Below, piece by piece: positions 27,395-61,620 of a DNA stretch of 64,000 bases (its first letter is position 1; every line of letters begins with the position of its first letter). This DNA is from Schmidtea nova (taxonomy: Eukaryota). The notes beneath the pieces are model-generated. The model saw nothing but the letters and a program-made list of their open reading frames with translations, did no database searches and was not told the DNA's origin. A program made the position numbers and the translations under genes. The DNA lies in NCBI GenBank assembly GCA_044892505.1, contig CM097883.1, positions 314,650,001 through 314,714,000 on the forward strand, written 5' to 3'.

Positions 27395-27490
27395 AATAAA
27401 ATAAATTTTTTCATCCAATAAAATCATTATAAAATATTAAAAAAATAATTAAGGCTACTATTTAGGATTAAGTAAATATAACGATAGAAA

Positions 27491-27526
27491 TACACACTTG
27501 ATAAAGGCTGTGCCGAAATATTGTGT
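27491..27526 (+). ncRNA. Minimal hammerhead-ribozyme-like motif in Penelope 3' region (mirror copy 24068-24103)
   Basis: cacac TTGATAA a GGC tgt GCC GAA ATAT T gtgt: stem I cacac/gtgt, U3-A8 variant core, 3-bp stem II, palindromic ATAT in place of stem III. Confidence 0.55.
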
Positions 27527-35186: not shown

Positions 35187-35690
35187 AGTAGGAGGATGTG
35201 TCAGGTCTGGATCCGTATGAGTTATCGCGCGTTTTTTGGCGCCATTTTTTAAGTGTGTTTTGTTTAAATGTTTGGATTTTTTTTTATTATTTTTATTTTA
35301 TTATTAAATTATTTCTTTTTTTTTATTTAAATAATTTTTTTTTATTAATTTATTTTAATTAGTTATTTATTTTTTTAAAAATATTATTAATTTACCTTTG
35401 TTAATATAATTTATTATTGTTCTTATTATTTTTCAACACCTTCAATGATAAACGTTCAATGAAAGCACTCATCAAAATATTATAAGCATATATCAAAATG
35501 AGACAATTCTGAACAACATAAAATTAGTTAATCAAATACGATAAATATTAAAATAATTATTTATTTTTATTAATATTACTATTATTTATATGACATAACC
35601 ATAGTTTCTAAAAATTATTACCCAAATTATAAAAACAGACTGAAACTAATCTGTACAATATATAACTAAATAATTAAAAAACAAAGTTCT

Positions 35691-38600
35691 TCAACAAATT
35701 TTATTTAATAAAACTGTTTCTTCTTCAGTTTGATCTTGGAATTGGTGATATGGATTGATTCTTGGATCGGTATGTTGAAATATAACCAAGTCACCTTCCA
35801 TATAATGGCCATATGCCAAGCTTTTATTTTTCGCCACCCATTTCCTTTTATCATCTGCGTTTGTCAGTGCAGTCTTTTCATTTTTAATAGTAAAAAGTTG
35901 GTGATTTTTACTTGTGATTCTCGTTTGGAGAACAGAAAATATTTGGTTATTATTAAAACAGTCCAGGTACGACTGATGCTTTATGTCAGTACCCGCTAAT
36001 GTTGCCCCCTTAGCTTTATTAGTTTCCTCGTCACCTAAAAGACTATAACATTTAGGTCTAAGAAACACCCACTACTCGTATTTAAGCCCTTTATTCTCGT
36101 CTTTGAACTTGCCAATGACAGAATCAAGGTTCCTACTATATAATGGGTGATTCGGATCATAATTAGAAGTGTCAAGTAAGTTATCTCGTATCATGGCCGG
36201 TAAAAGAATATCAAGCTTACAATTTCTAATCTCAAGAAAAAACGAATCGGTGTCACCAGCTACGATGTTAATTTCGCAGTTGAATTCGTTACGATATTTT
36301 TGTAACTCTTCATACTGCAGCTGGTACATTCTAAGTTTAGATAGATCCAGTACAGTTTGACCAATGTAGCTGGGTCTATCCAAACACACCGATTCCTGAT
36401 TCAGCAAGACGGCAACCAAATCACCGTCAATTTCGAAAGTCCTTTTAAAAGTTGGCTTAGAAGTATATGTAATCAGCCTAGAAGCCGAATTACATAATCT
36501 TAAATATATGCGCTTTTTAAGATTCTCTACGGTTTTACCGTAGAGACTATTATTTAATAATTTATAATAAATTTTATCCAGAGCATTACTTGATTCTGCT
36601 CTAAGTCTGGTATTGGTATCGATGTAATCCTTAAAAATACATGCTTGTTTAAATTTAATTGCCCTATGGACATGAGTTATTTTTACTCCAAGAGAAAGAA
36701 AAAGTTTGAGAAGTCTCCAATGAAGAACATAGTTCTTCTTGGGATAATGCGTAAGCATCAACTTCTCAACCTTTGAGCCAGGTGGACACATCTTTTCAGC
36801 GGCAACTGGCAAATCATCCAGCTTGTCGTGAATCGAATCAGGAATTTCTAAATCGACTTCTAATGTAAATCCAAATGTTAATACTTCTAAATCAGCAGAT
36901 TCACACTAATAAATTATTTTATTTCATTTTTCCCTATCAGTTACCCATTTAAATTCTTTATAAGGTAGTTTTTGGCTTAAAGCCCACCCATATAAATTAT
37001 TTATATCTATATAAAGAAGCTCAGTGTCGTCGGAGGATATTACATGGTGTATGTTAACAAATGTTAACCCACCACGGATCCCCCCTTCGAAAAAATTATA
37101 CATCTCCATATCTTGAAGCAACTCGATAGGAGATTTCAAAGTCATCAAAGCTGAATTCCATGACATGTCTGGAATTCCCAAGAAATTAAGAGGCTCAAGT
37201 CGGTTATGTGCAATGGATTTTGCCCTAAATTGCTGAAAAAAGTCGGCAAGTAAGAAAACATCCAATTTCAGGTATAACATCATATAATCAAACAATGTTT
37301 CACAATTAAATTCATCCCATATATGTTGAGCTTTTTCATACTCGTCGATTTTAACTCCTTCCCAAATCGGTGGCAACTCGTATGTATTTTGTAAAACTTC
37401 TAAAGAAGTTGCAAAATTATATGGGAATATGCTTTTGGATGTAATAATAGTCCCTAAAAAGTCAGATGAAGTAAGAGGAAAATCTGTTAAAGTCTTTACA
37501 GCATCGTTTAAGCTACAGCTTACAAATTGGCAAGAATCGATAAATTTAATAGTCAAACTATCGACTCTTGCATATAAAGTCAAAAACTTTTCACTTGTAG
37601 TAGGAATACAACTTATATCCCATTTAACGTATTTATTTAAACCATACTTGAGAATATGATGCAAATCATATCCGCGTAAATTATGAAATATGACTGGCAT
37701 AATGAATCTTATTTGCCGAGAAAAATTGCATTTAGAGCAAGCTGCACCCAAGTATTTACCTGTATAATGGTCATGATCTTTAACCGGATTTTTCAAAGGT
37801 TTATTACATAAATAACAAATTGTAGAACTACGAAATGATCTTATTTGTGCAGGAGAAAGATATTCCATTTTCCTTTTGGAATTATTTATAAAGTAAGGTA
37901 AAACTACTTTTTCTCCTATATCATTGATTTCAGTCAAAAACTCTTCTACACAGTTAAGACCATAAAAGCTTTTATACGATTTTTCGCCGGTAAAGTTATT
38001 AATAAGCAACAAGCCAGCAGAAATAGGCAAGTGACGTTGAAAATACTTATCGTCCTTCGGCAAAACAGCCTCAAAATCGGCATATACAACGAAAGGAGGG
38101 GTAACAATCTTTGACCAATCTTTAAATTCCAAGTTCTTATCTGAAGGTAAAGTGTATAAAGTTGTACCTAACTGATTTTTTGTGCATAAAGCCTGATGTT
38201 TCTCAAAAGCTTCAGTCAATCTAAAACCATTCAAGCAACGCTCGCACCACGTGCACCTTATTTGAACATCAGTAACAGAAAGAGTGTCACAATTTAAAAG
38301 TCTATTAATATTGGTAACTGCAATATAATGAAAAGAGTCACTTTTCTCTAACAAAATCAAATTAATTGGAGTGCCACCTACAACCTTTGACCTATGAATA
38401 ATATCTACAAATGGATGTTTCATGACTTCTTCCTCCTCAGTAATATAATTTAGATCATACTCGTCATATGAAAGAATATTTATTGCCAACCCCGGGGTTT
38501 TCGCTTCAAATTTGGGTATATTACATAATTTCATTGGAAAATCAGAAGGATCAAACACAAGGTCTAAGGGATTATAAGTATAAGACTTACTTCTATTAGA

Positions 38601-39398
38601 TTTCACATCCTTGTATTTTAAAATAGCCAAGATGCTATATATAAAACACAAGTTATCTGTATTCTTTACATTGACAGTGCAATGTTTTGCATTTAATGAT
38701 GGAGGGGTTGAACAATAACCTTTACCGATCAATCTACTTATTTGGGAATATTTTGTAAGTTTAAAGCTTATTTCTTTAATTTTATTTATTGACCAATTGC
38801 TGCCATTTTCGCAGACTTTAGTCATTTTTTCGCTTAATAGAGCAATACCTTCATCTAAAAAGGTATCACTCATTGGTTTTGCGGAATTTGATATTATAAA
38901 AGATTGAAATTGCTTATTCTTTTCAAATTCTACATCAATACAAAAATGTACTTTTACATACCCCATTTTGGAAATAACTGAATTAAATTTATTTAATAAA
39001 GGCGAAGGAATAATTAATTTATTTAAATTTAAAGAATCTACATCCATTTTAACAATGGCATGGGATTTTTTCAAATTATATTTAACCAAAGGTTCAACAG
39101 AACCACCATATTGGACAACATGTAAATTAGGAATAACCAAAACATCGTCATTTGATGAATGGACATCTTCATCATCGGATATTACAATTACTTTAGCCGG
39201 TTTAGGACAAACAGTAACATTTCGTCGTTTACTTTTATTAATTAATGCGAAAAGAGTTTTCTTAGTACATGAGAATTGATCTAAATGGAGATAATGTTGG
39301 AAATAAAAATCAATGTAATTTATATGTTGGGCGCTCTTACATGTGGGACATAAATAGAAGGTGACTTGATTATTTATAAGACGATAGTATCGCTCCAT
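35691..39398 (-). pseudogene. polB: Protein-primed family B DNA polymerase, left arm (in-frame stops at 36924 and 36069)
   Basis: VYADFE exonuclease I, FHNLRGYD, CYLC..DHDHYTGKYLGAACSKCN endonuclease VII-like zinc insert, YIDINNLYG, KLLNNSLYGK, GDTDS, PKCY. Confidence 0.92.
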
Positions 39399-39689
39399 TA
39401 ACTTGTGGCAGTCGTTATGATTTGACGACTTACAATAATTCGCATAAAATTTACCTTAATATGAAATATCTTTAAATTTATCAAAGAATCATTAAAATAA
39501 ATTAATAAAAATATGAATTATTAGAAAATAAATATGAAATTTAAGATAAATATGATTTAAATATAATAATTACTAAAATAATTTAAATTTAATATAAAAA
39601 TTATTACAAAATAATATTAAAGGAATTTGTTTAAATTAACTGTTTACGTAAAGTAAAGATTATTTAAATTATTACAAAATATTATCAAA

Positions 39690-40071
39690 TTATATGTTTA
39701 CAAATATTTTACTATATTTATTTACTAAATTAATTAAAAGTTAATCAAATTAATTAAAATTAATCAATACTTACATTGGACATTCAATACCATGTCAGGT
39801 ATAACTCCATTATTCACAATATTCTCATTATTAACAATCTCAGCTTGTACGGTAGTTTGTTCAGTCATATTTACATCACCTAAAGTAAAAGTTAAATAAT
39901 TTACTAAGTTAATGATCAAGTACCATTTTCTTCCGCATTTTCTAACATCGATTTCCCAATTGAATTATTGATATTACCTAAATTAATATTAAATAATAAT
40001 AAATTAAAAATAAATTTACCATTCTCTTTTCCACTTGGGTTTTCATTCATAAAACTTGTTATAATGTTCAT
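39690..40071 (-). CDS. Mirror copy of the small 4-exon gene
   Basis: Reverse complement of 42716-43097; ATG at 40071. Confidence 0.5.
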
Positions 40072-40589
40072 TTTTAATGTTTATTATTTGTTAAAGTGAA
40101 TAATGAATGAAAAAGTATTGTTTATATATCAAAGTTATTACACACACATAACCTTTGACCAATAAAAATCGAGTAAGGGGTAGGAAATTTATTCTTATTA
40201 GCCAATCAGAATCGAGTAAGAGACAGTAAAGGTATTATTATCATCAAATAGAGAAATGATAGAGAATTATGACTAATTTTATATTACGTTGCAGTATTTT
40301 AAAAAACTAGAAAAGTTATTTCAACAAATTATAATACACATCAAAGTTATAAAATATTTCAATGAATTGCATGCATGTCATATGATTAAAATATATTAGA
40401 CTAAATATTTCAGTAAATTACATCTAAATTATATTACATTTCAATAATTACGTCAGTTATAAAAAATATTTTAATTAATTTTGATAAAATACATTAGAAT
40501 TGTCAATAACACACACAAAACTTTTATAATTTTCATTAGTATAGAAATTAAATTATATCTACACATGATTACAATAAATATTCGATAAA

Positions 40590-41200
40590 TCTATGCTAAA
40601 TAGTCGAAAAAATCAGTATTTTATTACAAAACACGTGTGCATCACAAACATATCGATATACTTAATTTTTAATAAAGCTATTTTGTAGGCAATTAAAATT
40701 TATCTATATGTAATTACAATGAAAACTCACTAAAGTTATTTTAAATAACTAAAACTTACAGAATTAATTACAAAACACGTGTGTAACACGAAAAACGACA
40801 ACTTTAAGATTTTATAATCAAGCCATTTTATAGGAAATTAAATTTTACATATACTTTATTACAATGAAAACTCACTAAGGTTACTTTATATTGTTAAAAA
40901 TTTGAAAATTCAAAATAAAACACGTGTGCATCACAAAATACGACAAATTTCAGAATTCTAATAAAGCCATTTTGTAGACAATTAAATTTTATTTATATAA
41001 TATTACAATGAAAACTCAAAAAAGTTATTTTGTTTAGGTGAAATATACTAATTTAATGACAAAACACGTGTGCACAACAATATACACAACATTTTGAATT
41101 TTTAATTCAGCCATTTTGTAGACAATAAAATTCTGTCTATCTATTGTTTCAATAAAAACTCGATCGGGCCGGTTTATCGACTCGAAAAAGGCGTTTGAAG
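40590..41200. repeat. Four ~144-bp tandem units, each with a CACGTG palindrome (mirror at ~41590-42200)
   Basis: CACGTG at 40632, 40776, 40921 and 41065 (spacing 144, 145, 144). Confidence 0.8.
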
Positions 41201-41206
41201 TCTTGT

Positions 41207-41580
41207 AGTAGGAGGTAGTGAGCGGTCTGCCGCCCCCCATGTGTGAACTCATATACTTTTTATTAAATTTCAAATATAATTTCATATTTAAAAAAAATTA
41301 AAACAAAAAATTCATATAATTAAAAAAATAGTCCATTTAATTAAAACAAAAATTCACTTAATTTAAACAAAAAATCACTTGGTTTAAACAAAAAATTCAA
41401 TAAATTTTAAAAATATATGAAATTACGTAATTATATATGAAATTACGTAATTATCGGGTTTTATTTAGCACGCTTGATTACGTAATGATTATGTTGTTAT
41501 GTGTGCTATGTAAAGTCCGAGCGATTACGTAATATACACACATGTGGGTAGTGGATCTGGACCGGACACTACCTCCTACT
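41207..41580. mobile_element. 374-bp mini-element with Polinton-type ends at the palindrome centre
   Basis: AGTAGGAGGTAGTG at 41207 and CACTACCTCCTACT ending at 41580. The inner right end (tccggtccagatcc) resembles the outer terminus (tcaggtctggatcc). Confidence 0.6.
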
Positions 41581-42715
41581 ACAAGACTTCAAACGCCTTT
41601 TTCGAGTCGATAAACCGGCCCGATCGAGTTTTTATTGAAACAATAGATAGACAGAATTTTATTGTCTACAAAATGGCTGAATTAAAAATTCAAAATGTTG
41701 TGTATATTGTTGTGCACACGTGTTTTGTCATTAAATTAGTATATTTCACCTAAATAAAATAACTTTTTTGAGTTTTCATTGTAATATTATATAAATAAAA
41801 TTTAATTGTCTACAAAATGGCTTTATTAGAATTCTGAAATTTGTCGTATTTTGTGATGCACACGTGTTTTATTTTGAATTTTCAAATTTTTAACAATATA
41901 AAGTAACCTTAGTGAGTTTTCATTGTAATAAAGTATATGTAAAATTTAATTTCCTATAAAATGGCTTGATTATAAAATCTTAAAGTTGTCGTTTTTCGTG
42001 TTACACACGTGTTTTGTAATTAATTCTGTAAGTTTTAGTTATTTAAAATAACTTTAGTGAGTTTTCATTGTAATTACATATAGATAAATTTTAATTGCCT
42101 ACAAAATAGCTTTATTAAAAATTAAGTTTATCGATATGTTTGTGATGCACACGTGTTTTGTAATAAAATACTGATTTTTTCGACTATTTAGCATAGATTT
42201 ATCGAATATTTATTGTAATCATGTGTAGATATAATTTAATTTCTATACTAATGAAAATTATAAAAGTTTTGTGTGTGTTATTGACAATTCTAATGTATTT
42301 TATCAAAATTAATTAAAATATTTTTTATAACTGACGTAATTATTGAAATGTAATATAATTTAGATGTAATTTACTGAAATATTTAGTCTAATATATTTTA
42401 ATCATATGACATGCATGCAATTCATTGAAATATTTTATAACTTTGATGTGTATTATAATTTGTTGAAATAACTTTTCTAGTTTTTTAAAATACTGCAACG
42501 TAATATAAAATTAGTCATAATTCTCTATCATTTCTCTATTTGATGATAATAATACCTTTACTGTCTCTTACTCGATTCTGATTGGCTAATAAGAATAAAT
42601 TTCCTACCCCTTACTCGATTTTTATTGGTCAAAGGTTATGTGTGTGTAATAACTTTGATATATAAACAATACTTTTTCATTCATTATTCACTTTAACAAA
42701 TAATAAACATTAAAA

Positions 42716-43097
42716 ATGAACATTATAACAAGTTTTATGAATGAAAACCCAAGTGGAAAAGAGAATGGTAAATTTATTTTTAATTTATTATTATTTAATA
42801 TTAATTTAGGTAATATCAATAATTCAATTGGGAAATCGATGTTAGAAAATGCGGAAGAAAATGGTACTTGATCATTAACTTAGTAAATTATTTAACTTTT
42901 ACTTTAGGTGATGTAAATATGACTGAACAAACTACCGTACAAGCTGAGATTGTTAATAATGAGAATATTGTGAATAATGGAGTTATACCTGACATGGTAT
43001 TGAATGTCCAATGTAAGTATTGATTAATTTTAATTAATTTGATTAACTTTTAATTAATTTAGTAAATAAATATAGTAAAATATTTGTAAACATATAA
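42716..43097 (+). CDS. Candidate small 4-exon acidic/Asn-rich gene upstream of polB (81 aa)
   Basis: Exons 42716-42767, 42810-42863, 42908-43012 and 43063-43097; GT-AG introns of 42, 44 and 50 nt, all phase 1, frame preserved. Two CCAAT-type repeats and a TATA-like sequence upstream (42570-42665). The last exon is the least certain. Confidence 0.55.
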
Positions 43098-43388
43098 TTT
43101 GATAATATTTTGTAATAATTTAAATAATCTTTACTTTACGTAAACAGTTAATTTAAACAAATTCCTTTAATATTATTTTGTAATAATTTTTATATTAAAT
43201 TTAAATTATTTTAGTAATTATTATATTTAAATCATATTTATCTTAAATTTCATATTTATTTTCTAATAATTCATATTTTTATTAATTTATTTTAATGATT
43301 TTTTGATAAATTTAAAGATATTTCATATTAAGGTAAATTTTATACGAATTATTGTAAGTCGTCAAATCATAACGACTGCCACAAGTTA

Positions 43389-46300
43389 ATGGAGCGATAC
43401 TATCGTCTTATAAATAATCAAGTCACCTTCTATTTATGTCCCACATGTAAGAGCGCCCAACATATAAATTACATTGATTTTTATTTCCAACATTATCTCC
43501 ATTTAGATCAATTCTCATGTACTAAGAAAACTCTTTTCGCATTAATTAATAAAAGTAAACGACGAAATGTTACTGTTTGTCCTAAACCGGCTAAAGTAAT
43601 TGTAATATCCGATGATGAAGATGTCCATTCATCAAATGACGATGTTTTAGTTATTCCTAATTTACATGTTGTCCAATATGGTGGTTCTGTTGAACCTTTG
43701 GTTAAATATAATTTGAAAAAATCCCATGCCATTGTTAAAATGGATGTAGATTCTTTAAATTTAAATAAATAAATTATTCCTTCGCCTTTATTAAATAAAT
43801 TTAATTCAGTTATTTCCAAAATGGGGTATGTAAAAGTACAATTTTGTATTGATGTAGAATTTGAAAAGAATAAGCAATTTCAATCTTTTATAATATCAAA
43901 TTCCGCAAAACCAATGAGTGATACCTTTTTAGATGAAGGTATTGCTCTATTAAGCGAAAAAATGACTAAAGTCTGCGAAAATGGCAGCAATTGGTCAATA
44001 AATAAAATTAAAGAAATAAGCTTTAAACTTACAAAATATTCCCAAATAAGTAGATTGATCGGTAAAGGTTATTGTTCAACCCCTCCATCATTAAATGCAA
44101 AACATTGCACTGTCAATGTAAAGAATACAGATAACTTGTGTTTTATATATAGCATCTTGGCTATTTTAAAATACAAGGATGTGAAATCTAATAGAAGTAA
44201 GTCTTATACTTATAATCCCTTAGACCTTGTGTTTGATCCTTCTGATTTTCCAATGAAATTATGTAATATACCCAAATTTGAAGCGAAAACCCCGGGGTTG
44301 GCAATAAATATTCTTTCATATGACGAGTATGATCTAAATTATATTACTGAGGAGGAAGAAGTCATGAAACATCCATTTGTAGATATTATTCATAGGTCAA
44401 AGGTTGTAGGTGGCACTCCAATTAATTTGATTTTGTTAGAGGAAAGTGACTCTTTTCATTATATTGCAGTTACCAATATTAATAGACTTTTAAATTGTGA
44501 CACTCTTTCTGTTACTGATGTTCAAATAAGGTGCACGTGGTGCGAGCGTTGCTTGAATGGTTTTAGATTGACTGAAGCTTTTGAGAAACATCAGGCTTTA
44601 TGCACAAAAAATCAGTTAGGTACAACTTTATACACTTTACCTTCAGATAAGAACTTGGAATTTAAAGATTGGTCAAAGATTGTTACCCCTCCTTTCGTTG
44701 TATATGCCGATTTTGAGGCTGTTTTGCCGAAGGACGATAAGTATTTTCAACGTCACTTGCCTATTTCTGCTGGCTTGTTGCTTATTAATAACTTTACCGG
44801 CGAAAAATCGTATAAAAGCTTTTATGGTCTTAACTGTGTAGAAGAGTTTTTGACTGAAATCAATGATATAGGAGAAAAAGTAGTTTTACCTTACTTTATA
44901 AATAATTCCAAAAGGAAAATGGAATATCTTTCTTCTGCACAAATAAGATCATTTCGTAGTTCTACAATTTGTTATTTATGTAATAAACCTTTGAAAAATC
45001 CGGTTAAAGATCATGACCATTATACAGGTAAATACTTGGGTGCAGCTTGCTCTAAATGCAATTTTTCTCGGCAAATAAGATTCATTATGCCAGTCATATT
45101 TCATAATTTACGCGGATATGATTTGCATCATATTCTCAAGTATGGTTTAAATAAATTCGTTAAATGGGATATAAGTTGTATTCCTACTACAAGTGAAAAG
45201 TTTTTGACTTTATATGCAAGAGTCGATAGTTTGACTATTAAATTTATCGATTCTTGCCAATTTGTAAGCTGTAGCTTAAACGATGCTGTAAAGACTTTAA
45301 CAGATTTTCGTCTTACTTCATCCGACTTTTTAGGGACTATTATTACATCCAAAGGCATATTCCCATATAATTTTGCAACTTCTTTAGAGGTTTTACAAAA
45401 TACATACGAGTTGCCACCGATTTGGGAAGGAGTTAAAATCGACGAGTATGAAAAAGCTCAACATATATGGGATGAATTTAATTGTGAAACATTGTTTGAT
45501 TATATGATGTTATACCTGAAATTGGATGTTTTCTTACTTGCCGACTTTTTTCAGCAATTTAGGGCAAAATCCATTGCACATAACCGACTTGAGCCTCTTA
45601 ATTTCTTGGGAATTCCAGGCATGTCATGGAATTCAGCTTTGATGACTTTGAAATCTCCTATCGAGTTGCTTCAAGATATGGAGATGTATAATTTTTTCGA
45701 AGGGGGGATCCGTGGTGGGTTAACATTTGTTAACATACACCATGTAATATCCTCCGACGACACTGAGCTTCTTTATATAGATATAAATAATTTATATGGG
45801 TGGGCTTTAAGCCAAAAACTACCTTATAAAGAATTTAAATGGGTAACTGATAGGGAAAAATGAAATAAAATAATTTATTACTGTGAATCTGCTGATTTAG
45901 AAGTATTAACATTTGGATTTACATTAGAAGTCGATTTAGAAATTCCTGATTCGATTCACGACAAGCTGGATGATTTGCCAGTTACCGCTGAAAAGATGTG
46001 TCCACCTGGCTCAAAGGTTGAGAAGTTGATGCTTACGCATTATCCCAAGAAGAACTATGTTCTTCATTGGAGACTTCTCAAACTTTTTCTTTCTCTTGGA
46101 GTAAAAATAACTCATGTCCATAGGGCAATTAAATTTAAACAAGCATGTATTTTTAAGGATTACATCGATACCAATACCAGACTTAGAGCAGAATCAAGTA
46201 ATGCTCTGGGTAAAAATTATTATAAATTATTAAATAATAGTCTCTACGGTAAAACCGTAGAGATTCTTAAAAAGCGCATAAATTTAAGATTATGTAATTC

Positions 46301-47096
46301 GGCTTCTAGGCTGATTACATATACTTCTAAGCCAACTTTTAAAAGGACTTTCGAAATTGACGGTGATTTGGTTGCCGTCTTGCTGAATCAGGAATCGGTG
46401 TGTTTGGATAGACCCAGCTACATTGGTCAAACTGTACTGGATCTATCTAAACTTAGAATGTACCAGCTGCAGTATGAAGAGTTACAAAAATATCGTAACG
46501 AATTCAACTGCGAAATTAACATCGTAGCTGGTGACACCGATTCGTTTTTTCTTGAGATTAGAAATTGTAAGCTTGATATTCTTTTACCGGCCATGATACG
46601 AGATAACTTACTTGACACTTCTAATTATGATCCGAATCACCCATTATATAGTAGGAACCTTGATTCTGTCATTGGCAAGTTCAAAGACAAGAATAAAGGG
46701 CTTAAATACGAGGAGTGGGTGTTTCTTAGACCTAAATGTTATAGTCTTTTAGGTGACGAGGAAACTAATAAAGCTAAGGGGGCAACATTAGCGGGTACTG
46801 ACATAAAGCATCAGTCGTACCTGGACTGTTTTAATAATAACCAAATATTTTCTGTTCCCCAAACGAGAATCACAAGTAAAAATCACCAACTTTTTACTAT
46901 TAAAAATGAAAAGACTGCACTGACAAACGCAGATGATAAAAGGAAATGGGTGTCGAAAAATAAAAGCTTGGCATATGGCCATTATATGGAAGGTGACTTG
47001 GTTATATTTCAACAAAACGATCCAAGAATCAATCCATATCACCAATTCCAAGATCAAACTGAAGAAGAAACAGTTTTATTAAATAAAATTTGTTGA
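43389..47096 (+). pseudogene. polB: Protein-primed family B DNA polymerase, right arm (in-frame stops at 43770 and 45861)
   Basis: Same motifs as the left arm; the three ORF-track pieces share one frame. Confidence 0.92.
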
Positions 47097-47607
47097 AGAA
47101 CTTTGTTTTTTAATTATTTAGTTATATATTGTACAGATTAGTTTCAGTCTGTTTTTATAATTTGGATAATAATTTTTAGAAACTATGGTTATGTCATATA
47201 AATAATAGTAATATTAATAAAAATAAATAATTATTTTAATATTTATCGTATTTGATTAACTAATTTTATGTTGTGCAGAATTGTCTCATTTTGATATATG
47301 CTTATAATATTTTGATGAGTGCTTTCATTGAACGTTTATCATTGAAGGTGTTGAAAAATAATAAGAACAATAATAAATTATATTAACAAAAGTAAATTAA
47401 TAATATTTTAAAAAAAATAAATAACTAATTAAAATAAATTAATAAAAAAAAATTATTTAAATAAAAAAAAAGAAATAATTTAATAATAAAATAAAAATAA
47501 TAAAAAAAAAATCCAAACATTTAAACAAAACACACTTAAAAAATGGCGCCAAAAAACGCGCGATAACTCATACGGATACAGACCTGACACATCCTCCTAC
47601 TATATTG

Positions 47608-54030: not shown

Positions 54031-54980
54031 ATCTAAATGACCGCAAATTGGAGTAATATAATAAAGTAAATTTATGAGAAATAAATTTTATTTTATAGTA
54101 GATTGTTCTTCTCAATGGAACTCTGTAATAAATGCCACGATTTTATACTTTTCGATTTGAAATAATTTGATCTGTTTTTGTAAATCCATCAAATTGTCTT
54201 AGTATTTTAGAACTTCATATTTCTCATATTTATTTATCCTAATATATAATAATTAAACTAAAATGAGAGTTCAACTACATAATTTCCACTGTAAGCCATT
54301 GACATTAAAGATTTCCTAATATTATACTAAAAAATATAATGATACAAAAGTTTATATCACATTTTTTACACCCCTGACATAGGGAATCGCACACCTCCAA
54401 TGTTTTATTCAAAACACTCTACCCCCTCCCTCCCCTCCCCCCACACACACATCCAATGAAAGTGTAAATATACTTGTAATAAAAAATCTTTACAGAAATG
54501 CCAAAATAACGTGCTGGGTTCATGGAGGGGTTAGATGAAAAATGCTCTAACAATGACTAGGGATCCCTCATCCATGATCATGCATAAAATTGCAATCTTA
54601 CACTCAAGCGCCCTTGATTATTTCCCTATATAATCAAGTTGGTGATGCGCAGGGTGGTTAAACAATGATGGGCAGGCGAGCACTATCGCTAGTACTACTC
54701 CCCATTTATGTTTACGGGTTCATTGCTGCCGTTAGAAGGACTTATGCTTTAATCATTTGCTTAGGTATTCCGCAATAATCTTTTAGAAAATTTATTTTTA
54801 ACATTGCGTATTCTGCGAGAAGTGTTTAAATCAAAATGCTCGCTTAATTATTTATTTGCCTTTGCTAGATAATTTGTGATATGAATTTATACTTTTATAC
54901 TATATTGATCTAATTATTCGTCAATTTACCAAATCAATTTAAAGGAACAATAAACTTTTTAAGATAACACAAAATTTTAT

Positions 54981-55577
54981 TTAATTTTTAGTTAGTTCTG
55001 TAAAAACTCCAGCTGGAGGAAAAATCTCCGTCAATAATTCCTCTTCAGTCAACTGGTGTAGACCATCTACTTGACTCTGTAATCGCTGGGCGAATAATTT
55101 CCTCTGTCTTCGCCGTTTCTGCCCAATGCGCTTGCGTTTTTGGTGCGCGTTTGCCGTTGAGGTGGATGGAATTATTGCTGAAACCGGCTCATTCCGACTT
55201 TCGATTAGATCGGCGACATCCGTGCCAATGGAATTTACAGTCCTCTTTTCTGATGTCCAAGCTTGATACGTAACCGGACGGATTTGCTCTCTGAGTTCTT
55301 TCTCAATATATGAGGCAGTTACGGAATGGAGGCATTTTCGGAGTTCTAACTTTGTAGCCTCCCATTCCATTTGGTAATCGGCTGCAGTCTGCTGGGCGCG
55401 CTCGGTTTTACTGATTTGCTCCTTCATTCTGGCCGGAGCAAACCAGCTTTTGCGCAAGTATGCAATCTGTGCCTCGGCTTTGATCAATTGTGCCTTGAGG
55501 AGACCCACTTCCTTGTCCTGGGCTCTCCGGATCCGCCACATCTTTTCCAATTCTCTCTGTATCAAATCGGTGGTCAT
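54981..55577 (-). CDS. Hypothetical coiled-coil protein with basic NLS-like stretch (198 aa)
   Basis: ATG-started ORF with a heptad-rich N-terminus and KRKRIGQKRRRQRK; TAG acceptor 1 nt before the ATG. Confidence 0.6.
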   Translation of the reverse strand: MTTDLIQRELEKMWRIRRAQDKEVGLLKAQLIKAEAQIAYLRKSWFAPARMKEQISKTERAQQTAADYQMEWEATKLELRKCLHSVTASYIEKELREQIRPVTYQAWTSEKRTVNSIGTDVADLIESRNEPVSAIIPSTSTANAHQKRKRIGQKRRRQRKLFAQRLQSQVDGLHQLTEEELLTEIFPPAGVFTELTKN

Positions 55578-55762
55578 TCTATAATTTATTTACGATATTC
55601 ACTTTATAATGCAATTATATGAAAAATTGAAATCTGATTATAGGATTATTAGGTTACGAATACGAACTATTAAAAACACAAAACCAAAACTCAAAACAAC
55701 AAAATAAAAACACCGCTGAACATTAATATTTGAACACAATTTAAACATTTGACAATCAGTTT

Positions 55763-56242
55763 TTATCTCCGAAACAAGCTATGTAATTCGCTGTTAATCG
55801 GCCTCCGACGAAGACGGGCCCAAGAGAATGAGGGTTGTCCTCTCTGGCACTCCTTGCCGAACGGTTTTCGTGGTAGAAATTCGTGTAGGCCTAGTTGACA
55901 TAGTTCCCGACGAGGGATGTGCCCCCAATAAATTATATGGCTTGTTCGTCCCTCGGTGTTCCTGACTAATACGATCATTCGGCCAAACTTATTGGAGTAC
56001 GGCCTTTGGGAAATCGGCCAGTTCGGTCCTCCTCGATAGAGTATTTGGTCGTTCCCTCCTGTCCATATCGAGAACGGGCATTTTCGGCCAAACCCATGTC
56101 GCCACTTATACATCTGGCAGTTGAGGGTTCGCAAGATCGATGCCGGTAGATCCTTGAGCTGCGAGATCTTTCCATTTTGCCTATTCCCTTGTTCCACTTT
56201 CCGTAGGTGAGTTAATTGATTCATAAGTTCGGCTGTCGACAT
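55763..56242 (-). CDS. Hypothetical basic protein (159 aa)
   Basis: ATG-started ORF in a GC-richer block; TAG immediately before the ATG and TATAAAT at 56310-56304. Confidence 0.5.
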   Translation of the reverse strand: MSTAELMNQLTHLRKVEQGNRQNGKISQLKDLPASILRTLNCQMYKWRHGFGRKCPFSIWTGGNDQILYRGGPNWPISQRPYSNKFGRMIVLVRNTEGRTSHIIYWGHIPRRELCQLGLHEFLPRKPFGKECQRGQPSFSWARLRRRPINSELHSLFRR

Positions 56243-57848
56243 CTATATTACATTTATTGGATATAAAATATATGAGTTAACGGAGGGAATTTGTGGATAA
56301 ATCATTTATACTGCCTATAATCACAAAAGTTACTTAAAAATAAGATTAATTTTATTTCTCTCCGCCGTGATCTACCACGGTCGGAATAAAGAGTTCATAA
56401 TTAGTCCTGTGCTATATACAGCATTCAGGAATTATCAAATTTAATCAAGATTTCCGCGCTATATACAGCGATCGGAGAATAACTTGGGAAACCGCGCCAT
56501 ATACGACGATCGGTCTATTTTTAGTAACTAATTTAATTTAACTTGGATTTTCCGACGCATTCCAATGCGATCGGAATTTATCGATATTATAATTTTGTAG
56601 GCGAGATGCTGATTCCGAATGAAATCGGACTTTAGACTACGATGAATTTTCTCATTTCAGCGAAATTATTCAAATTTATTTTATTTGTTGCTCACTGTTT
56701 CTCCATGCGGGAGGTTCCATTACGATTCAATTGACTAAAAATTCAAATGATGAGTACGCCCTACCATGGGGGGTCCCTCCTTATCAATCCGCCCTCCGCA
56801 ATCTCCCTATTTGGCCCTCGACCCTCGTCCGTTGTGCAACCCAGAATTAAATAATTAGTAAATGGTTTGTACTAGATCAAAAATTCAATCAGATTTCTAA
56901 ATAAAATTCCACATCTAAACTAAATACTAAAAAGGTTGAACCGCCATGTGAGACCCTGAGGCCCCACAACGACGACTCGGACTCCCTCGCCGCGTGAGCA
57001 GCATAGGAAGTATAACTATATGCATCAAAATATCAATAAAATAACGTTAACATATAAAATTTTAATTGAATAAAAATCATGGGTACATCATATAAGATAA
57101 ATATAAAAATTTACTTCCGTACTTGAATGTGTGGTTCCTTGTATGAAATTCTGTTTTTCAAAAAATCTCGTTTTGTTCAATGAAATATTACTTAAATCAA
57201 AGTTTAGTCTTGATTGTAAGTGAAAAGTAAAAACGTCCCTTGTTGTGATTTTTGGATCGGTATTTATACTGATCCGTCTGGTTGGATTGACCAATCAGGA
57301 TCAGGCCGTCCTTCAAAGTATTTTTATTATTTTATTCTAATCTAAACATTATTTTGTTTTCCTTTTCCGGTTTCTCGCTGGGTGGTCCTGATTTTTCAAA
57401 TAATTAATTAATTATTTGCACTATTATTTTATTTAATTCTATCTTTGTCTTATTTCAGGCCCCCTTTTGCTGTTGTTTACCGGTTTATTTTCCAAATTTC
57501 CTTTTACTGAAAATTTATCAAATATTATTTGTCGTTTTATTGTTATTTTTAATTTGTTTTTCTTGTTATTTTTATGTTTATTATTTTCTTATTGTTTTGT
57601 GTTTTTGCTCTTTTATTGTGTTTTTAGGTGATTTGGCGGGCCCAACATCACCCGGGGACCCCTAAAATTGCGTCCCGCAATTAAGTATACATAAATACTT
57701 ATTTTCATCATACATAAAAAGTTTTATAGACTTATACATGCAAAGAAAAATCACATAAGGTGATCGAATTTATACATATCATACAATTGTCATTCATTAG
57801 TCAAAATGTAATAATTTGTCACAATAGTTCGATAAGTTATCATAAAGT

Positions 57849-58418
57849 TTATACAATTTGTTCGATCGTCTGGCTCGCTTGGGGTTGAGTTCGGGTCCTC
57901 TCGTTGATTATTTGTAGCTCGTAGTGGGTTTGGATGTGGTTGAGGTGGCTCCTTATTCGTCTTTGAGCTCGGTTATCTCGTCTGGAGGTTTGGTTGTAGA
58001 TTTTCTGCTTTTGTTTTAGGATCTTTATTCTATATGAGGCAATTAGGATTGTGATTGCGATGATAGTTGTGCTGATTGCTAGGATTATGATGATTGCTAT
58101 GATCCATTTTTCTTGATATTCTATTTCAGCTTGGGATAGGCTTTTTATGGGCTCTCTACCTTCTTTCAGGATTTTTCGGGTTTCTTTTAATTTCAGTTGT
58201 TGGTTACCGCAGATTTGTTGGATTTGATGATCTTGATTGTAGGGGTATTTCTGTCGGAATTCGTTGATTTCTTTAATTACTTCTTCGATTAGGCTGTCTA
58301 CTCTCTGGTAGATTTTGTCGGGTAGAACTCGTAATTGGGTTTCGGTTAGTTGTAGATCTTCTCTCTGTAGGGTAATGGTTGTTAACCATAGGAGTGTTGC
58401 TATTGCGAGCTTTCTCAT
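57849..58418 (-). CDS. Hypothetical type I membrane protein
   Basis: The first ATG gives MRKLAIATLLWLTTITLQ (signal-like), then a helical ectodomain, TM WIIAIIIILAISTTIIAITILIA and a basic tail. Confidence 0.7.
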   Translation of the reverse strand: MRKLAIATLLWLTTITLQREDLQLTETQLRVLPDKIYQRVDSLIEEVIKEINEFRQKYPYNQDHQIQQICGNQQLKLKETRKILKEGREPIKSLSQAEIEYQEKWIIAIIIILAISTTIIAITILIASYRIKILKQKQKIYNQTSRRDNRAQRRIRSHLNHIQTHYELQIINERTRTQPQASQTIEQIV

Positions 58419-58493
58419 CTCTTTTATACATCGGTCAATACAGCTTGACACTTTTTATTTTACATAATTTATTTACACTTGGTTTTCGCACAT

Positions 58494-59555
58494 TTATACA
58501 AGGGTTTCGTTGGGTTCGTGAAAACCTTCGTCTTGAGGTTCCACCTGATTTATGGGGAGTGGCATCCATATTACCGTGCTCCTCCACATTTCGACTTCTT
58601 CTCGGTATGTGTGGGATATCTGGATCTCTTCATCTAATAAGTATTCCAGATAGTTCGCTTGTTCTGTTAGGGTTTCAATTTGTTTTTCTAGTTCTGCCAA
58701 TTTTTTCTCTCTCTCTTCCTTCTCCATCATTTCGGTCACTGCTGCTGTGATACTTGTTTCTTTTATTGGTGTTGGTTTTTCTGCCAACTTCTTTCTCAGT
58801 TCTTCGTTTTCTTTTGTCAAATTTGTTATGTTCTCTTCATAACTCTGCCTCGTTTCTTCCAGTCTTTCTTTAGTTCTTTTTAATTCTATTTTCTTCTGGG
58901 TGATCACTCCTTGATATCCATTTATGTCTCTTTTCATGTTTTCTTCCTTGTGATTCCACATTCCGGTCAGCATACCTTTTAATTGTTCTTGATTGGCTAA
59001 ATCTTCTCCCATTCTTCGTACTTGATAAGTTAATTCTTTAATTTTCTTGGCTTGTTCTCTGATAAATTGTTGTCTTTTCTTACTCCATACTTTATTTGAT
59101 GCTTCTTGACTGATCTTTTGCCCTAATTCCTCTTTTAATTCATCGACCTCTTTAAACAGTTTCCAATCATCGCTGTATGCTGTTCGTTCTATTATCTCCC
59201 TTGCTTCCTTGTAAGAGTCTTTTGCCTCTTTCTTCCAATATCTTGCTTGTTCTGTGATTGACTGAATCTTATGGTCTGTTTTTATTTGTTGTCTATCCCT
59301 ATCCTCTCGTCGCTCTTTCATCATCTCTTTGTAGTATTCGTTTTGTTGTCTTAGCAGTTTGTAGACTTCTTCTATTTTTTCTCGACTTCTTTGATTCGTT
59401 TTCTCGGCTTCTCTTAGTGCTTGGGTTTGTCTTTCCAATTCCTCCTGTTTTCGATAATAGGCATGAATCCATATCCCAATCCGCTCCATGTGATTTCTGA
59501 TCATTTCGTCTTGATGTACTGTTACTTCTTGTAAGGTTACTTCTATATTTCCCAT
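58494..59555 (-). CDS. Hypothetical long coiled-coil protein (353 aa)
   Basis: Uninterrupted E/K/Q/R-rich heptad ORF. Confidence 0.75.
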   Translation of the reverse strand: MGNIEVTLQEVTVHQDEMIRNHMERIGIWIHAYYRKQEELERQTQALREAEKTNQRSREKIEEVYKLLRQQNEYYKEMMKERREDRDRQQIKTDHKIQSITEQARYWKKEAKDSYKEAREIIERTAYSDDWKLFKEVDELKEELGQKISQEASNKVWSKKRQQFIREQAKKIKELTYQVRRMGEDLANQEQLKGMLTGMWNHKEENMKRDINGYQGVITQKKIELKRTKERLEETRQSYEENITNLTKENEELRKKLAEKPTPIKETSITAAVTEMMEKEEREKKLAELEKQIETLTEQANYLEYLLDEEIQISHTYREEVEMWRSTVIWMPLPINQVEPQDEGFHEPNETLV

Positions 59556-59740
59556 TTCTATAATTACAGATAAAAAGAATATTTAATCATTTTTTATTTT
59601 TATTGTTTTTGATTATTTGTTAATTCATATTGTTTCTATACATTTTATTTACATGGTTACTTCCTTCATTACGCCAACCATCCTTTTCTGTCTGTTTTCT
59701 CATGCCTCTCCATCTCTATGTATAGCGTGTCTGCATATAG

Positions 59741-61045
59741 TCACTCCCATAGGTTTTCTTTCCTTATAAACATTGGTTCTCCTGCTGCTAGTCCGCATTC
59801 TGTTGTTGGTTTTTCGCTCGTACTCGTATGTTTGTCTGTTTCAAAGAACTTTTCTACTGGTTTTCCCATACTTTTGATTCTTATAATGACTCCTACTTTC
59901 AAGGGCCATTCTATTAGGTCATCGTATTCTCCTTTACATAGTGAGAAGAATATTGACACGTGTGTTCCTTGTCCTCTTCCGTCTCCATTTGGGTATACTT
60001 TCAATCTTATTTTAACCCCGTTTTTCCATAAATAAAATGGTGGGCTTATTACTGCTGTTTTCGTCATATTTCTGGCTTCTGCTAGTTTGTCTCTGAAATC
60101 TGTTACTTTCCATAGGTAAGGTGCGATTGGTAAGTCCCTTCTTTCGTCAATTTCTCGTATTAATTGATTATATTGTATTTTCATTCCTTTTCCTAATTCT
60201 TCTATGGCTATTATTTTCTTTTCCATTCTTTCGCGGGTTAGTTCAAACAGCTCTCTTGTTTCTAGTAGTAAACTCATCATTATCTTATGTGATTCTACTT
60301 CTTTTTCTAATTTCTGGATTGTCTGTTCCGTTTCTTTTGTCGTTTCGTTTGTCATTTCCACATGCGTTAGTGCTGCTTCTTCTAGGTGTTGTTTCATTGA
60401 TTGCCGCGTCCGCTTTTCTTTGCATCCCTGTTTGTTATATGGACATTCTCTTGGTCTTTCGGTACATACTTTCCAATGTTCATGTAACTTTACTTCTTCT
60501 GTTATTTCGCAATTGTTTGGACATTTACTTACATATTGTCTGCATACTTTCTCCTCTGTTATATTCAAGTGTTCCTCTTCGATTTTTCTCCTCGTTTCTC
60601 GAGTTTCACAATACTCGCATGCGATTTCTTCTTCTTTACATTCTTCCTTGTGTTGTTCTCTCTTCTTTAGAGTTATTGTCTGTTGGCATTTCTCGCATTC
60701 GGCTCTCTTTTCCTCGCATTTTTCCATATGGTTTTCCAGATTACTTATTTGTCCTTGCCATGTACAAGGTGTATTTACGCACTCCGTTGTGGTGCTCATA
60801 ATTTCTCTTTGGGTTGCTTTGTCCGTTCTGGTTTCGTCCAACACTATTCTTCCTTCCTTACATTCTGGGCATGTTGTTATTCCTGTTGCATCTAATTCTT
60901 GTATACATTTTGTACATATTCTACATCCACATATCGTTTGTCTGGGTTCTCGTAGTAAATTATTACATTTCCCGCAGGTGAGCCTCTTGCTCCATTTTCT
61001 GTTTTCTAGTCTCAAAATCTCGATTATTCGTTCTTCTCTGTCCAT
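59741..61045 (-). CDS. TRAF: Intronless TRAF-family protein (RING, TRAF zinc fingers, coiled coil, MATH)
   Basis: RING CGKC..CGCRICTKC..CPEC; zinc fingers with CPNNC and CPYNKQGC; MATH YLWKV..SPPFY..KVYPNGDGRGQGTHVSIF..GEYDDLIEWP. Confidence 0.9.
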   Translation of the reverse strand: MDREERIIEILRLENRKWSKRLTCGKCNNLLREPRQTICGCRICTKCIQELDATGITTCPECKEGRIVLDETRTDKATQREIMSTTTECVNTPCTWQGQISNLENHMEKCEEKRAECEKCQQTITLKKREQHKEECKEEEIACEYCETRETRRKIEEEHLNITEEKVCRQYVSKCPNNCEITEEVKLHEHWKVCTERPRECPYNKQGCKEKRTRQSMKQHLEEAALTHVEMTNETTKETEQTIQKLEKEVESHKIMMSLLLETRELFELTRERMEKKIIAIEELGKGMKIQYNQLIREIDERRDLPIAPYLWKVTDFRDKLAEARNMTKTAVISPPFYLWKNGVKIRLKVYPNGDGRGQGTHVSIFFSLCKGEYDDLIEWPLKVGVIIRIKSMGKPVEKFFETDKHTSTSEKPTTECGLAAGEPMFIRKENLWE

Positions 61046-61138
61046 TCTCTACAATAATATATACATTCGACTTGTCATTTATTTTTTGGTTTTTCTTGTT
61101 TTTATTTTTACATATTTACAATTTTCCGCTTTATTTAT

Positions 61139-61495
61139 CTATGGCTCATTCGTTGAATCTGGTTCCGCTTCGTTGTTTAGTCTATTTATTACCCAACTCA
61201 TCCATCCTTCTTCGGATTCTTCTCTTTCTCCTCGTGTTAAATGGTTTATTTCTATTGCTTGTCTTTGATTGATATTGCTTATATTTTGATTTTCTCTGGT
61301 GAGCTCGGTTATCGCTCTTTGTTGTTCTTCTATTCTGTGTAATTGTTCGAAACAGTTGTTATAACTTTCTGATAATAACATTTGTCTTTCCGCTAATTGG
61401 TTCTGTAATGAGTTGACTGTTCGTACTAATAAATCACATTGTGCCTTCCATCTCATAGCCATAGTTATTTCAGTTGTTTCGTCCTGTTCGGTCAT
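61139..61495 (-). CDS. Hypothetical small coiled-coil protein (118 aa)
   Basis: ATG-started ORF with the same codon bias as its neighbours. Confidence 0.65.
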   Translation of the reverse strand: MTEQDETTEITMAMRWKAQCDLLVRTVNSLQNQLAERQMLLSESYNNCFEQLHRIEEQQRAITELTRENQNISNINQRQAIEINHLTRGEREESEEGWMSWVINRLNNEAEPDSTNEP

Positions 61496-61620
61496 TTTCT
61501 AAATTATATACATCATTTACTTTGCTTTTCTAGCTTTTTACAATTTTTATAATATCGATACCCATACTATTACGGTAATGCTTTGTTATTTACACTATTA
61601 TTTACAGTCATAATCCGCCC

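What the first reader, a model, noticed from the sequence alone, without database searches (positions are those of the whole stretch)
55578..61620. Operon-like punctuation: poly(A)-type signal then an AG acceptor directly before every ATG
On the minus strand the ORF starts read aattatag-a-ATG (55577), taatatag-ATG (56242), taaaag-ag-ATG (58418), aattatag-aa-ATG (59555), ttattgtag-aga-ATG (61045) and aatttag-aaa-ATG (61495). Five of six have TAG 0-3 nt before the start, matching the intron acceptors seen elsewhere in the window (aatttag). The gaps between adjacent ORFs also contain (T/C)GTAAATA, usually as part of TGTAAATAAA (UGUA plus AAUAAA, also a Pumilio-type UGUANAUA). This layout matches polycistronic transcripts resolved by 3' cleavage plus SL trans-splicing (known in nematodes and flatworms), or by alternative cis-splicing as in complex retroviruses. 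Inference: a mobile element may use the host trans-splicing machinery to express its accessory genes.
Basis: partly seen in the sequence, partly recalled or inferred. Interest (0 to 1): 0.82.

Follow-up and report, generated by a model that had tools for sequence, protein, structure and literature searches.

The report
One-leader, eight-acceptor giant retrotransposon
The genes lie inside a 30-kb Burro-type jumping element of what is likely a planarian flatworm, and seven of its eight genes start just behind a conserved splice-acceptor-like site (the eighth behind a weak one), so the element likely makes its mRNAs the way complex retroviruses do, by splicing one short leader onto different genes, and not as an operon cut up by poly(A) signals.

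Summary
The AG-before-ATG pattern is real; the poly(A) reading is weak. The six ORFs are the 3' accessory genes and two LTR-encoded genes of a 29.7-kb Burro-type Ty3/gypsy element (LTRs 99.8% identical). Across five related lineages a YAG ends 0-5 nt before 28 of 31 accessory starts, against 474 of 2,718 other ATGs. The AG stays fixed while the base before it toggles C/T. The LTR holds CCAAT and TATA boxes, an ATG-poor leader and a donor-like GTRA. A further acceptor lies about 500 nt before gag, with 84-98 ATGs upstream of it and none between it and the gag start. One genomic copy lacks 3.6 kb exactly from a CAG|GT to the acceptor at 61499, likely the fossil of a cis-spliced RNA (1 of 14 deletion junctions). 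TGTAAATA is invariant and begins 14-21 nt after each upstream stop, but AATAAA is not conserved, and UGUA is reported absent from planarian poly(A) sites. Best reading: one promoter and one leader, cis-spliced to eight acceptors (0.68). SL operon as main route 0.12. No RNA data were available, and the main Burro1 paper could not be read.

The parts
54512..57647 (-). 3' LTR (3,136 bp, TG...CA) of a 29.7-kb Burro-type Ty3/gypsy element; its 5' twin lies beyond the window (17,069-20,204 nt past the window end)
   Evidence: self-BLAST 99.78% identical; 4-bp target duplication CGTT
57261..57296 (-). LTR core promoter candidate: CCAAT box (GATTGG at 57296) and TATA box (CAGTATAAATA at 57271)
   Evidence: same pair near the LTR start in the four other lineages printed; function inferred
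57109..57122 (-). end of the ATG-free leader and candidate major splice donor (GT at 57114-57113; a second GT 8 nt earlier)
   Evidence: GTRA follows within 0-2 nt in 53 of 54 LTRs carrying the anchor; T rises from 0.24 to 0.53 across it; use inferred
55763..56244 (-). LTR ORF L1 (159 aa, no Pfam match) with acceptor AG at 56244-56243
   Evidence: YAG kept in 61 of 62 LTR copies and 36 of 37 distinct contexts
54981..55580 (-). LTR ORF L2 (198 aa, no Pfam match) with acceptor AG at 55580-55579
   Evidence: YAG kept in 47 of 49 copies
54796..54981 (-). AATAAA sites 285-470 nt before the LTR end, after L2: candidate poly(A) signal of the element
   Evidence: AATAAA at a similar place in lineages D and E; not tested on RNA
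57849..58422 (-). last accessory ORF (189 aa, one hydrophobic segment) with the weakest and most variable acceptor, preceded by a conserved TGTATTGAC (branch-point-like)
58419..58493 (-). gap 4 (75 nt): TGTAAATA at 58477, AATAAA at 58473 and 58459
   Evidence: motif unchanged in 54 of 54 copies
58494..59559 (-). accessory ORF, 353 aa, coiled-coil-like composition, no family; acceptor AG at 59559-59558
   Evidence: AG unchanged in 57 of 57 copies
59556..59740 (-). gap 3 (185 nt in this copy, whose TRAF frame stops early; 100-116 nt in sister lineages): TGTAAATA at 59653
59741..61050 (-). TRAF-like ORF (434 aa: RING-like, zf-TRAF, MATH); acceptor AG at 61050-61049
   Evidence: Pfam MATH_2 7e-20, zf-TRAF 2.8e-7; AG unchanged in 60 of 60 copies
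61046..61138 (-). gap 2 (93 nt): TGTAAATA at 61120, A-rich tract, TGTATATA at 61065
61139..61500 (-). accessory ORF acc1 (118 aa); acceptor AG at 61500-61499, the end point of the GT-AG excision seen in another copy
   Evidence: AG unchanged in 59 of 59 copies
61496..61620 (-). gap 1 (125 nt): TGTAAATA at 61606 and 61594, TGTATATA at 61512, no AATAAA
61621..64000 (-). 3' end of the polyprotein gene, which runs on beyond the window (Env/fusion, protease, RT, RNase H, integrase, ankyrin, C-terminal membrane region)

Best explanation
The element has a promoter-like LTR start, an ATG-poor leader and a conserved acceptor-like site before seven of its eight genes (a weak one before the eighth), and it likely makes one mRNA per gene by cis-splicing that leader onto the chosen acceptor, as complex retroviruses do. 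Shown: the element, the conserved YAG sites, the promoter-like boxes, the ATG distribution, one precise GT-AG deletion ending at the acc1 acceptor. Inferred: (1) transcription starts about 30 nt after the TATA box near the LTR start; (2) the leader of roughly 70-170 nt ends at the GTRA donor; (3) joining it to an acceptor makes that gene's ATG the first AUG; (4) gag-pol too is translated from a spliced RNA, because the unspliced RNA carries 84-98 AUGs ahead of the gag acceptor, and that spliced RNA lacks the primer-binding site, so only unspliced or LTR-internally spliced RNA can be copied; (5) the TGTAAATA sites are RNA-protein sites of Pumilio type (UGUANAUA) just after each upstream stop, acting on mRNA stability, translation or acceptor choice, and are not poly(A) signals (this step alone about 0.45).
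For: YAG 0-5 nt before ATG in 28 of 31 starts over five lineages vs 474 of 2,718 other ATGs; the accessory proteins of those lineages are only 28-97% identical to the window's. At L1 the AG is fixed in 36 of 37 distinct contexts while positions -4 to -15 vary freely and -3 is C in 28 and T in 6; at the RING gene -3 is C in 12 and T in 4 of 16 copies. 19 of 30 scored sites rank in the top 5% of about 2,000-2,300 AGs per element under a matrix from 23 inferred host introns. CCAAT+TATA then a donor-like GT in all five lineages; GTRA in 53 of 54 A-type LTRs. Gag acceptor present in 17 of 17 copies where the site was found among 20; no ATG between it and the gag ATG in 5 of 5 lineages and 13 of 14 copies. 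Copy L117 (G000:C1, 268.37-268.39 Mb) keeps the primer-binding site and matching LTR parts (99.87% over 1,530 bp) and lacks 3,617 nt from GAACAG|GTTATA to ATTTAG|AAAATG; that AG|GT is the state of 17 of 20 copies; only 32 of 1,464 AGs in the polyprotein gene are followed by GT. AG-to-ATG spacing changes frame between lineages (TRAF 3,3,1,2,2; 353-aa ORF 2,2,2,3,3), as expected for a non-coding first exon. Three small single-ORF relatives examined have no TGTAAATA after their stop.
Against: No RNA evidence: nothing here shows that the element is transcribed or that the leader donor is used. The fossil is a single case, uses an internal donor and not the leader donor, and a DNA deletion over a 2-nt AG microhomology would give the same letters; the other 13 of 14 junctions are not GT-AG. 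No leader-joined copy was found (0; 0 among the 134 copies: 0), though most such RNAs would lack the primer-binding site and could not be copied. The window-type donor ranks only 218 of 903 GTs under the small host matrix. The last ORF's acceptor is weak in all four lineages scored (ranks 31-41%). The five lineages share ancestry, so the 31 sites are not independent; for two starts I took the homologous ATG and not the first ATG of the frame.
Confidence: 0.68

Rival explanations
1. Operon: the long transcript is cut and polyadenylated in each gap and the host spliced leader is trans-spliced onto each AG.
For: Gap sizes of 74-185 nt match flatworm operon spacing near 100 nt (PMC8629364 passages; PMC12582326 section 14). 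SL trans-splicing is reported in a Schmidtea species (PMC10899757 passages). A Ty3/gypsy RNA carrying SL1 is known in C. elegans Cer1 (PMC3315495 passages). A fixed upstream motif sits in every internal gap.
Against: AATAAA is absent from the first gap in 5 of 5 lineages and from 3 of 4 gaps in lineage D; gaps are 41-59% A and 22-35% T, whereas planarian cleavage sites are U-rich and lack upstream UGUA (PMC5068929). Four efficient cleavage sites would block the full-length RNA the element needs. All reported flatworm SLs end in AUG (PMC12582326), yet only 14 of 28 spacings would put it in frame and orthologous sites change frame. The element has its own donor, and the one fossil is cis. Host SL genes were not searched for in G000.
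Confidence: 0.12
2. Each gap is a small internal promoter (TGTAAATA as a Forkhead-like or TATA-like element, label recalled), giving one short-UTR mRNA per gene, with or without a short outron.
For: Internal promoters for env exist in Oikopleura Tor3b/4b elements (PMC4402516 passages). The motif is nearly invariant and lies 52-127 nt before the AG; TATA-like strings occur in several gaps.
Against: The motif keeps a near-fixed distance to the upstream stop (14-21 nt in 14 of 15 gaps) and not to the next start. It does not explain the YAG with C/T toggling, the gag acceptor or the fossil. CCAAT boxes like the LTR's are mostly missing. The RING, gag and L1 acceptors have no TGTAAATA gap of this kind.
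Confidence: 0.08
3. TGTAAATA holds a splice donor (T|GTAAAT), so each gap is a 52-127-nt intron, or each ORF is a cassette exon whose donor lies just after the stop.
For: GTAAAT is a host donor and many host introns are 44-62 nt; a junction less than 50 nt after a stop would escape junction-dependent decay (established rule).
Against: The base before GT is T in every gap, and copy variation stops at that T, which fits a UGUA site better than a donor; no deletion of 25 nt or more inside any gap in 60 copies; donor ranks 21-502 of about 800-940 GTs are unremarkable.
Confidence: 0.07
4. The AGs are a by-product of start-codon context and shared descent; downstream genes are read by reinitiation or leaky scanning, or not at all.
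For: AAAATG is also the context of two host enolase starts; the lineages are related; no RNA data.
Against: Enrichment over the element's own ATGs, invariance among variable LTR types, the ATG-free zone that begins at the gag acceptor and the fossil.
Confidence: 0.05

Closest known systems
Burro / GYPSM1 giant Ty3/gypsy elements of dugesiid planarians (PMC6431247, passages)
   Same: About 30 kb, one Gag-Env-PR-RT-RH-IN polyprotein near 5,000 aa with env between gag and pol, ankyrin repeats, a TRAF/MATH accessory ORF, tandem repeats, hundreds of copies.
   Different: Here the TRAF ORF lies downstream of the polyprotein; the RING gene shows no BIR match in Pfam. The review says nothing on how accessory ORFs are expressed. 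No direct sequence comparison with Burro1-4 was possible.
Complex retroviruses (HIV-1-type one major donor, many acceptors; recalled) and spliced env/ORF3 of LTR elements (Tor3a, PMC4402516; bdelloid ORF3, PMC5408684; passages)
   Same: LTR promoter, 5' donor, acceptors placed just before accessory starts.
   Different: Here the donor lies inside the LTR ahead of the primer-binding site, there are eight acceptors, two genes lie within the LTR, and gag-pol itself appears to need splicing.
C. elegans Cer1 (PMC3315495, passages)
   Same: Ty3/gypsy element in an SL-using host; a spliced RNA is found with and without SL1.
   Different: Cer1 makes Gag-Pol from the unspliced 8-kb RNA and has one spliced product, not a row of accessory genes.
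Flatworm and nematode SL operons (PMC12582326 sections 14-15; PMC8629364 passages)
   Same: Same-strand genes about 100 nt apart, YAG acceptor near the downstream ATG.
   Different: No conserved poly(A) signal in the gaps; an element-borne donor exists; the unit must also yield an uncut genomic RNA.

Membership tests
Ty3/gypsy LTR retroelement | Paired LTRs, primer-binding site, target duplication | tested here: met
   3,136-bp LTRs 99.78% identical; TGGGGGCTCAGCCGGGAT after the 5' LTR in all lineages (tRNA identity not tested); 4-bp duplication
Ty3/gypsy LTR retroelement | Domain order PR-RT-RH-IN | tested here: met
   Pfam RVP, RVT_1, RT_RNaseH, Integrase_H2C2, rve in that order
Burro-type giant element | About 30 kb with a single polyprotein near 5,000 aa | tested here: met
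   29.7 kb; many sister copies have open frames of 5,640-5,690 codons; this copy's frame is interrupted once after gag
Burro-type giant element | Env/fusion domain in frame between gag and protease; ankyrin; TRAF/MATH | tested here: met
   PF24664 2.7e-70 before RVP; Ank_2 1.3e-11; zf-CCHC; MATH
Burro-type giant element | BIR domain (B-IAP of Burro1) | tested here: not met
   the RING gene of a sister copy gives RING only; so not filed as Burro1 itself
Burro-type giant element | Sequence or RT-tree placement with published Burro1-4; planarian host | not testable with these tools
   no Burro reference held; host inferred from the element's likeness only; protein searches returned no planarian-named hit
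Complex-retrovirus-like alternative cis-splicing | Acceptors before accessory starts | tested here: met
Complex-retrovirus-like alternative cis-splicing | A 5' major donor | tested here: inconclusive
   conserved GTRA in 53 of 54 LTRs but modest matrix rank and no precise leader junction
Complex-retrovirus-like alternative cis-splicing | Spliced subgenomic RNAs observed | not testable with these tools
   no RNA run listed; one DNA fossil as indirect trace
SL operon | Poly(A) signal and U-rich cleavage region in each intercistronic gap | tested here: not met
   against PMC5068929
SL operon | Intergenic distance near 100 nt and acceptor near the ATG | tested here: met
   74-185 nt
SL operon | SL found on downstream mRNAs | not testable with these tools
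   no RNA; no non-native 5' join at the TRAF or 353-aa starts in the assembly
SL operon | SL RNA genes in the host genome | not tested

The most novel reading that the evidence does not exclude
A giant env-bearing Ty3/gypsy element runs an eight-acceptor splicing programme from one LTR leader in which even Gag-Pol comes only from a spliced RNA lacking the primer-binding site, so message and genome are separate RNAs, solo LTRs are complete two-gene units, and Pumilio-type sites after each stop gate the apoptosis/TRAF accessory genes; the host SL may serve the same acceptors as a second route.
Probability: 0.4. Interest if true: 0.75.

Novelty: new variant of a known kind. Interest (0 to 1): 0.55.

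Why it matters
Burro elements are among the largest retroelements known, and one accessory gene of Burro1 is reported to protect planarian stem cells (cited in PMC13465017). How a 30-kb element expresses up to eight genes is not described in what I could read. This gives exact, testable junctions. If gag-pol needs splicing, the proteins must act in trans on unspliced RNA, which would change how autonomy and copy success are judged. It also warns that TRAF- and RING-like transcripts in such a host may be element products.

Tried and rejected
RNA: no RNA holder listed. The four listed runs are contigs of unrecorded kind; 15 of 25 joints were shown and none has splice ends. Searches for copies of spliced RNAs: leader donor followed by an ATG, 0 (one LTR subtype, number of such LTRs not counted); non-native sequence before the TRAF start, 0 (134 copies carry the start); before the 353-aa start, 0 (denominator not counted); before acc1, 5 hits, of which 1 is the fossil and 4 are unrelated. 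Copy L105 breaks at the candidate leader donor and resumes 34-46 nt before the TRAF ATG with a 12-nt duplication: not a splice junction, suggestive only. Stop-codon read-through between gag and pol was rejected: sister copies run open. The flatworm enolase operon as a host control was uninformative. The host matrix rests on 23 of 47 inferred myosin introns, chosen by length and score margin, and its donor half discriminates poorly. ESM Atlas gave no family for the 353-aa ORF. Earlier scan findings: none. Not held, so not read: Lee et al. 2026 Dev Cell on Burro1, Grohme et al. 2018, Rossi et al. 2014. Any of these or their supplements may already describe Burro transcript structure. PMC13524379 had no hit for my terms; PMC2770079 and PMC7346339 passages gave no planarian SL sequence.


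Full report
What the region is. The six ORFs belong to one minus-strand element that runs 20 kb past the window's end. With the neighbouring stretches, self-comparison shows LTRs of 3,136 bp, 99.78% identical, 29.7 kb apart end to end, with a 4-bp target duplication. The order is: 5' LTR holding ORFs L1 (159 aa) and L2 (198 aa), primer-binding site, a RING gene, tandem repeats, gag and a polyprotein (fusion-type Env, protease, RT, RNase H, integrase, ankyrin), then acc1 (118 aa), TRAF (434 aa), a 353-aa ORF, a 189-aa ORF, and the 3' LTR. This matches the published description of planarian Burro elements (PMC6431247, passages); the planarian host is inferred from that likeness. This copy is broken once between gag and pol and in the RING gene; many sister copies run open for 5,640-5,690 codons. 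134 places carry the TRAF start exactly. The ORFs at 56242 and 55577 are the 3' LTR's copies of L1 and L2.

Observation. The quoted contexts are correct. I took ten further elements found with Env queries. Five are small single-ORF relatives with 1-kb LTRs; five are giant, giving with the window five lineages (A, A2, D, E/G, F; G duplicates E and was not counted). TRAF is 97, 77, 70 and 44% identical to the window's. A YAG ends 0-5 nt before 28 of 31 accessory starts, against 132 of 684 internal Met codons and 342 of 2,034 other ATGs; per-lineage binomial P runs from 2e-6 to 0.02. The three misses are the last ORF in A and E and acc1 in F, where no start codon lies at the homologous place but a TTTCAG does. 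The sites are orthologous, so not independent, and for two starts (E TRAF, A2 RING) I used the homologous ATG.

The AGs behave like 3' splice sites. LTR subtypes differ widely upstream of L1, yet the AG is kept in 61 of 62 copies and 36 of 37 distinct contexts, and position -3 is C in 28 and T in 6. The RING site toggles TTCAG/TTTAG, 12 and 4 of 16. The acc1, TRAF and 353-aa AGs are unchanged in 59, 60 and 57 copies. Host acceptors inferred from myosin genes include ATTATAG, AATATAG, TATTCAG and CATGTAG; under a matrix from 23 of those 47 introns, 19 of 30 sites fall in the top 5% of their element's AGs, while the last ORF's site is weak everywhere.

The element has a matching 5' end. Each lineage has GATTGG and a TATA box near the LTR start, then a donor-like GT about 100-200 nt on. 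In A-type LTRs GTRA follows a fixed anchor in 53 of 54 cases and T rises from 0.24 to 0.53 across it. The leader has 0, 0, 0, 1 and 1 ATG in the five lineages; between donor and a conserved acceptor about 500 nt before gag there are 84-98 ATGs; between that acceptor and the gag ATG there are none in 485-577 nt. That acceptor is present in 17 of 17 copies where the site was found among 20 examined; the window's own copy lacks it. Inference: unspliced RNA is a poor gag message, and the spliced one lacks the primer-binding site.

A likely splice fossil. In 90 of the 134 copies (30 over 3 kb, 60 over 10 kb, 20 of these extended to 30 kb) I found 14 distinct internal deletion junctions. Thirteen are not GT-AG; most show microhomology or inserted letters. 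One, L117, removes 3,617 nt from GAACAG|GTTATA in the polyprotein gene to ATTTAG|AAAATG, the acc1 acceptor at window 61499. That donor state is seen in 17 of 20 copies (the window's copy lacks it), and the copy keeps the primer-binding site and matching LTR parts. If every junction fell on an AG, hitting one of about 5 predicted acceptors among roughly 800 AGs and an AG followed by GT (32 of 1,464) has a chance near 1e-4 per junction, about 2e-3 over 14 (my estimate). It is the only such copy for acc1. It shows cis use of one AG at best; it does not show the leader donor, and a 2-nt microhomology deletion cannot be excluded. L105 breaks at the candidate leader donor but resumes imprecisely. 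Three other searches for joined copies were empty.

The gap motif. TGTAAATA occurs in 4 of 4, 4 of 4, 4 of 4, 3 of 4 and 2 of 3 internal gaps, TGTAHATA in all 19, and TGTAAATA 0-1 times in 12-16.5 kb of polyprotein gene. It is unchanged in 59, 60, 56 of 57 and 54 copies while flanks vary. The first TGTA begins 14-21 nt after the upstream stop in 14 of 15 gaps (6 nt in one) and 52-127 nt before the AG. AATAAA is not conserved: none in the first gap in any lineage, 1 in four gaps in D, above shuffles only in A. In S. mediterranea UGUA is reported absent upstream of poly(A) signals and cleavage sites are U-rich (PMC5068929, passages); the gaps are A-rich. The motif fits the Pumilio consensus UGUANAUA (established knowledge); that role is inferred and untested.

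Mechanism and rivals. Best: one LTR promoter, one non-coding leader, alternative cis-splicing to eight acceptors, unspliced RNA as genome (0.68). SL operon as main route 0.12: spacing and host clade allow it, parasitic flatworm acceptors often serve both reactions and Cer1 is a precedent, but the cleavage signals are missing, the SL's terminal AUG would be in frame at only 14 of 28 sites and would change frame between lineages, and four cleavage sites would oppose full-length RNA. Internal promoters 0.08 (precedent Tor3b/4b). Small introns or cassette donors 0.07. Chance or reinitiation 0.05.

Novelty. The element kind is known, and spliced accessory genes are known in retroviruses and some LTR elements. 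Nine literature searches and the passages read showed no account of Burro transcript structure; the review's three 'splic' hits concern other matters. The two primary Burro papers were not held, so prior description is possible. Burro1 RNA is detected in S. mediterranea after piwi knockdown (PMC8532177, passages). Verdict: a real and conserved punctuation, most likely a many-acceptor cis-splicing programme; new variant of a known kind; interest 0.55.

Noticed in passing
L013, just ahead of the gag ATG (14,088-14,606 nt past the window end); lineages A, A2, D, E/G, F: 143-173 stop-free, ATG-free codons lie in frame before the gag ATG in all five lineages (155-197 in 13 of 14 further copies), beginning near a shared ATT-GAN; a non-AUG N-terminal extension is possible.
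   Followed up: partly
G000, e.g. L090, L091: About 45 dispersed, intron-less fragments of the enolase N-terminal part, 87-89% alike between the loci compared; probably carried by another repeat.
   Followed up: no
window 35258-47529: 6-kb arms, 99% complementary, 332 nt apart, holding a PolB-type polymerase gene (PF03175) and 144-nt repeats.
   Followed up: no
window 24033-27561: 1,650-nt arms, 100% complementary, 229 nt apart, next to masked stretches.
   Followed up: no
L012-L013, polyprotein: Repeated RINMLRA/HINMLRN-like words at domain borders, candidate protease cleavage sites.
   Followed up: no
window 54512-57647: With the promoter near its start and AATAAA sites after L2, the LTR could be a complete two-gene unit, so solo LTRs might express L1 and L2; many LTR subtypes share one internal region.
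   Followed up: partly
L105 (G000:C1, 141.69 Mb): A truncated copy in which the LTR leader breaks at the candidate donor and resumes 34-46 nt before the TRAF ATG with a 12-nt duplication.
   Followed up: partly
L016-L035: Small relatives (1-kb LTRs, one 3,200-3,350-codon frame with the same Env type, RT about 50% identical) lack accessory ORFs; possible outgroup for how the giant form arose.
   Followed up: partly
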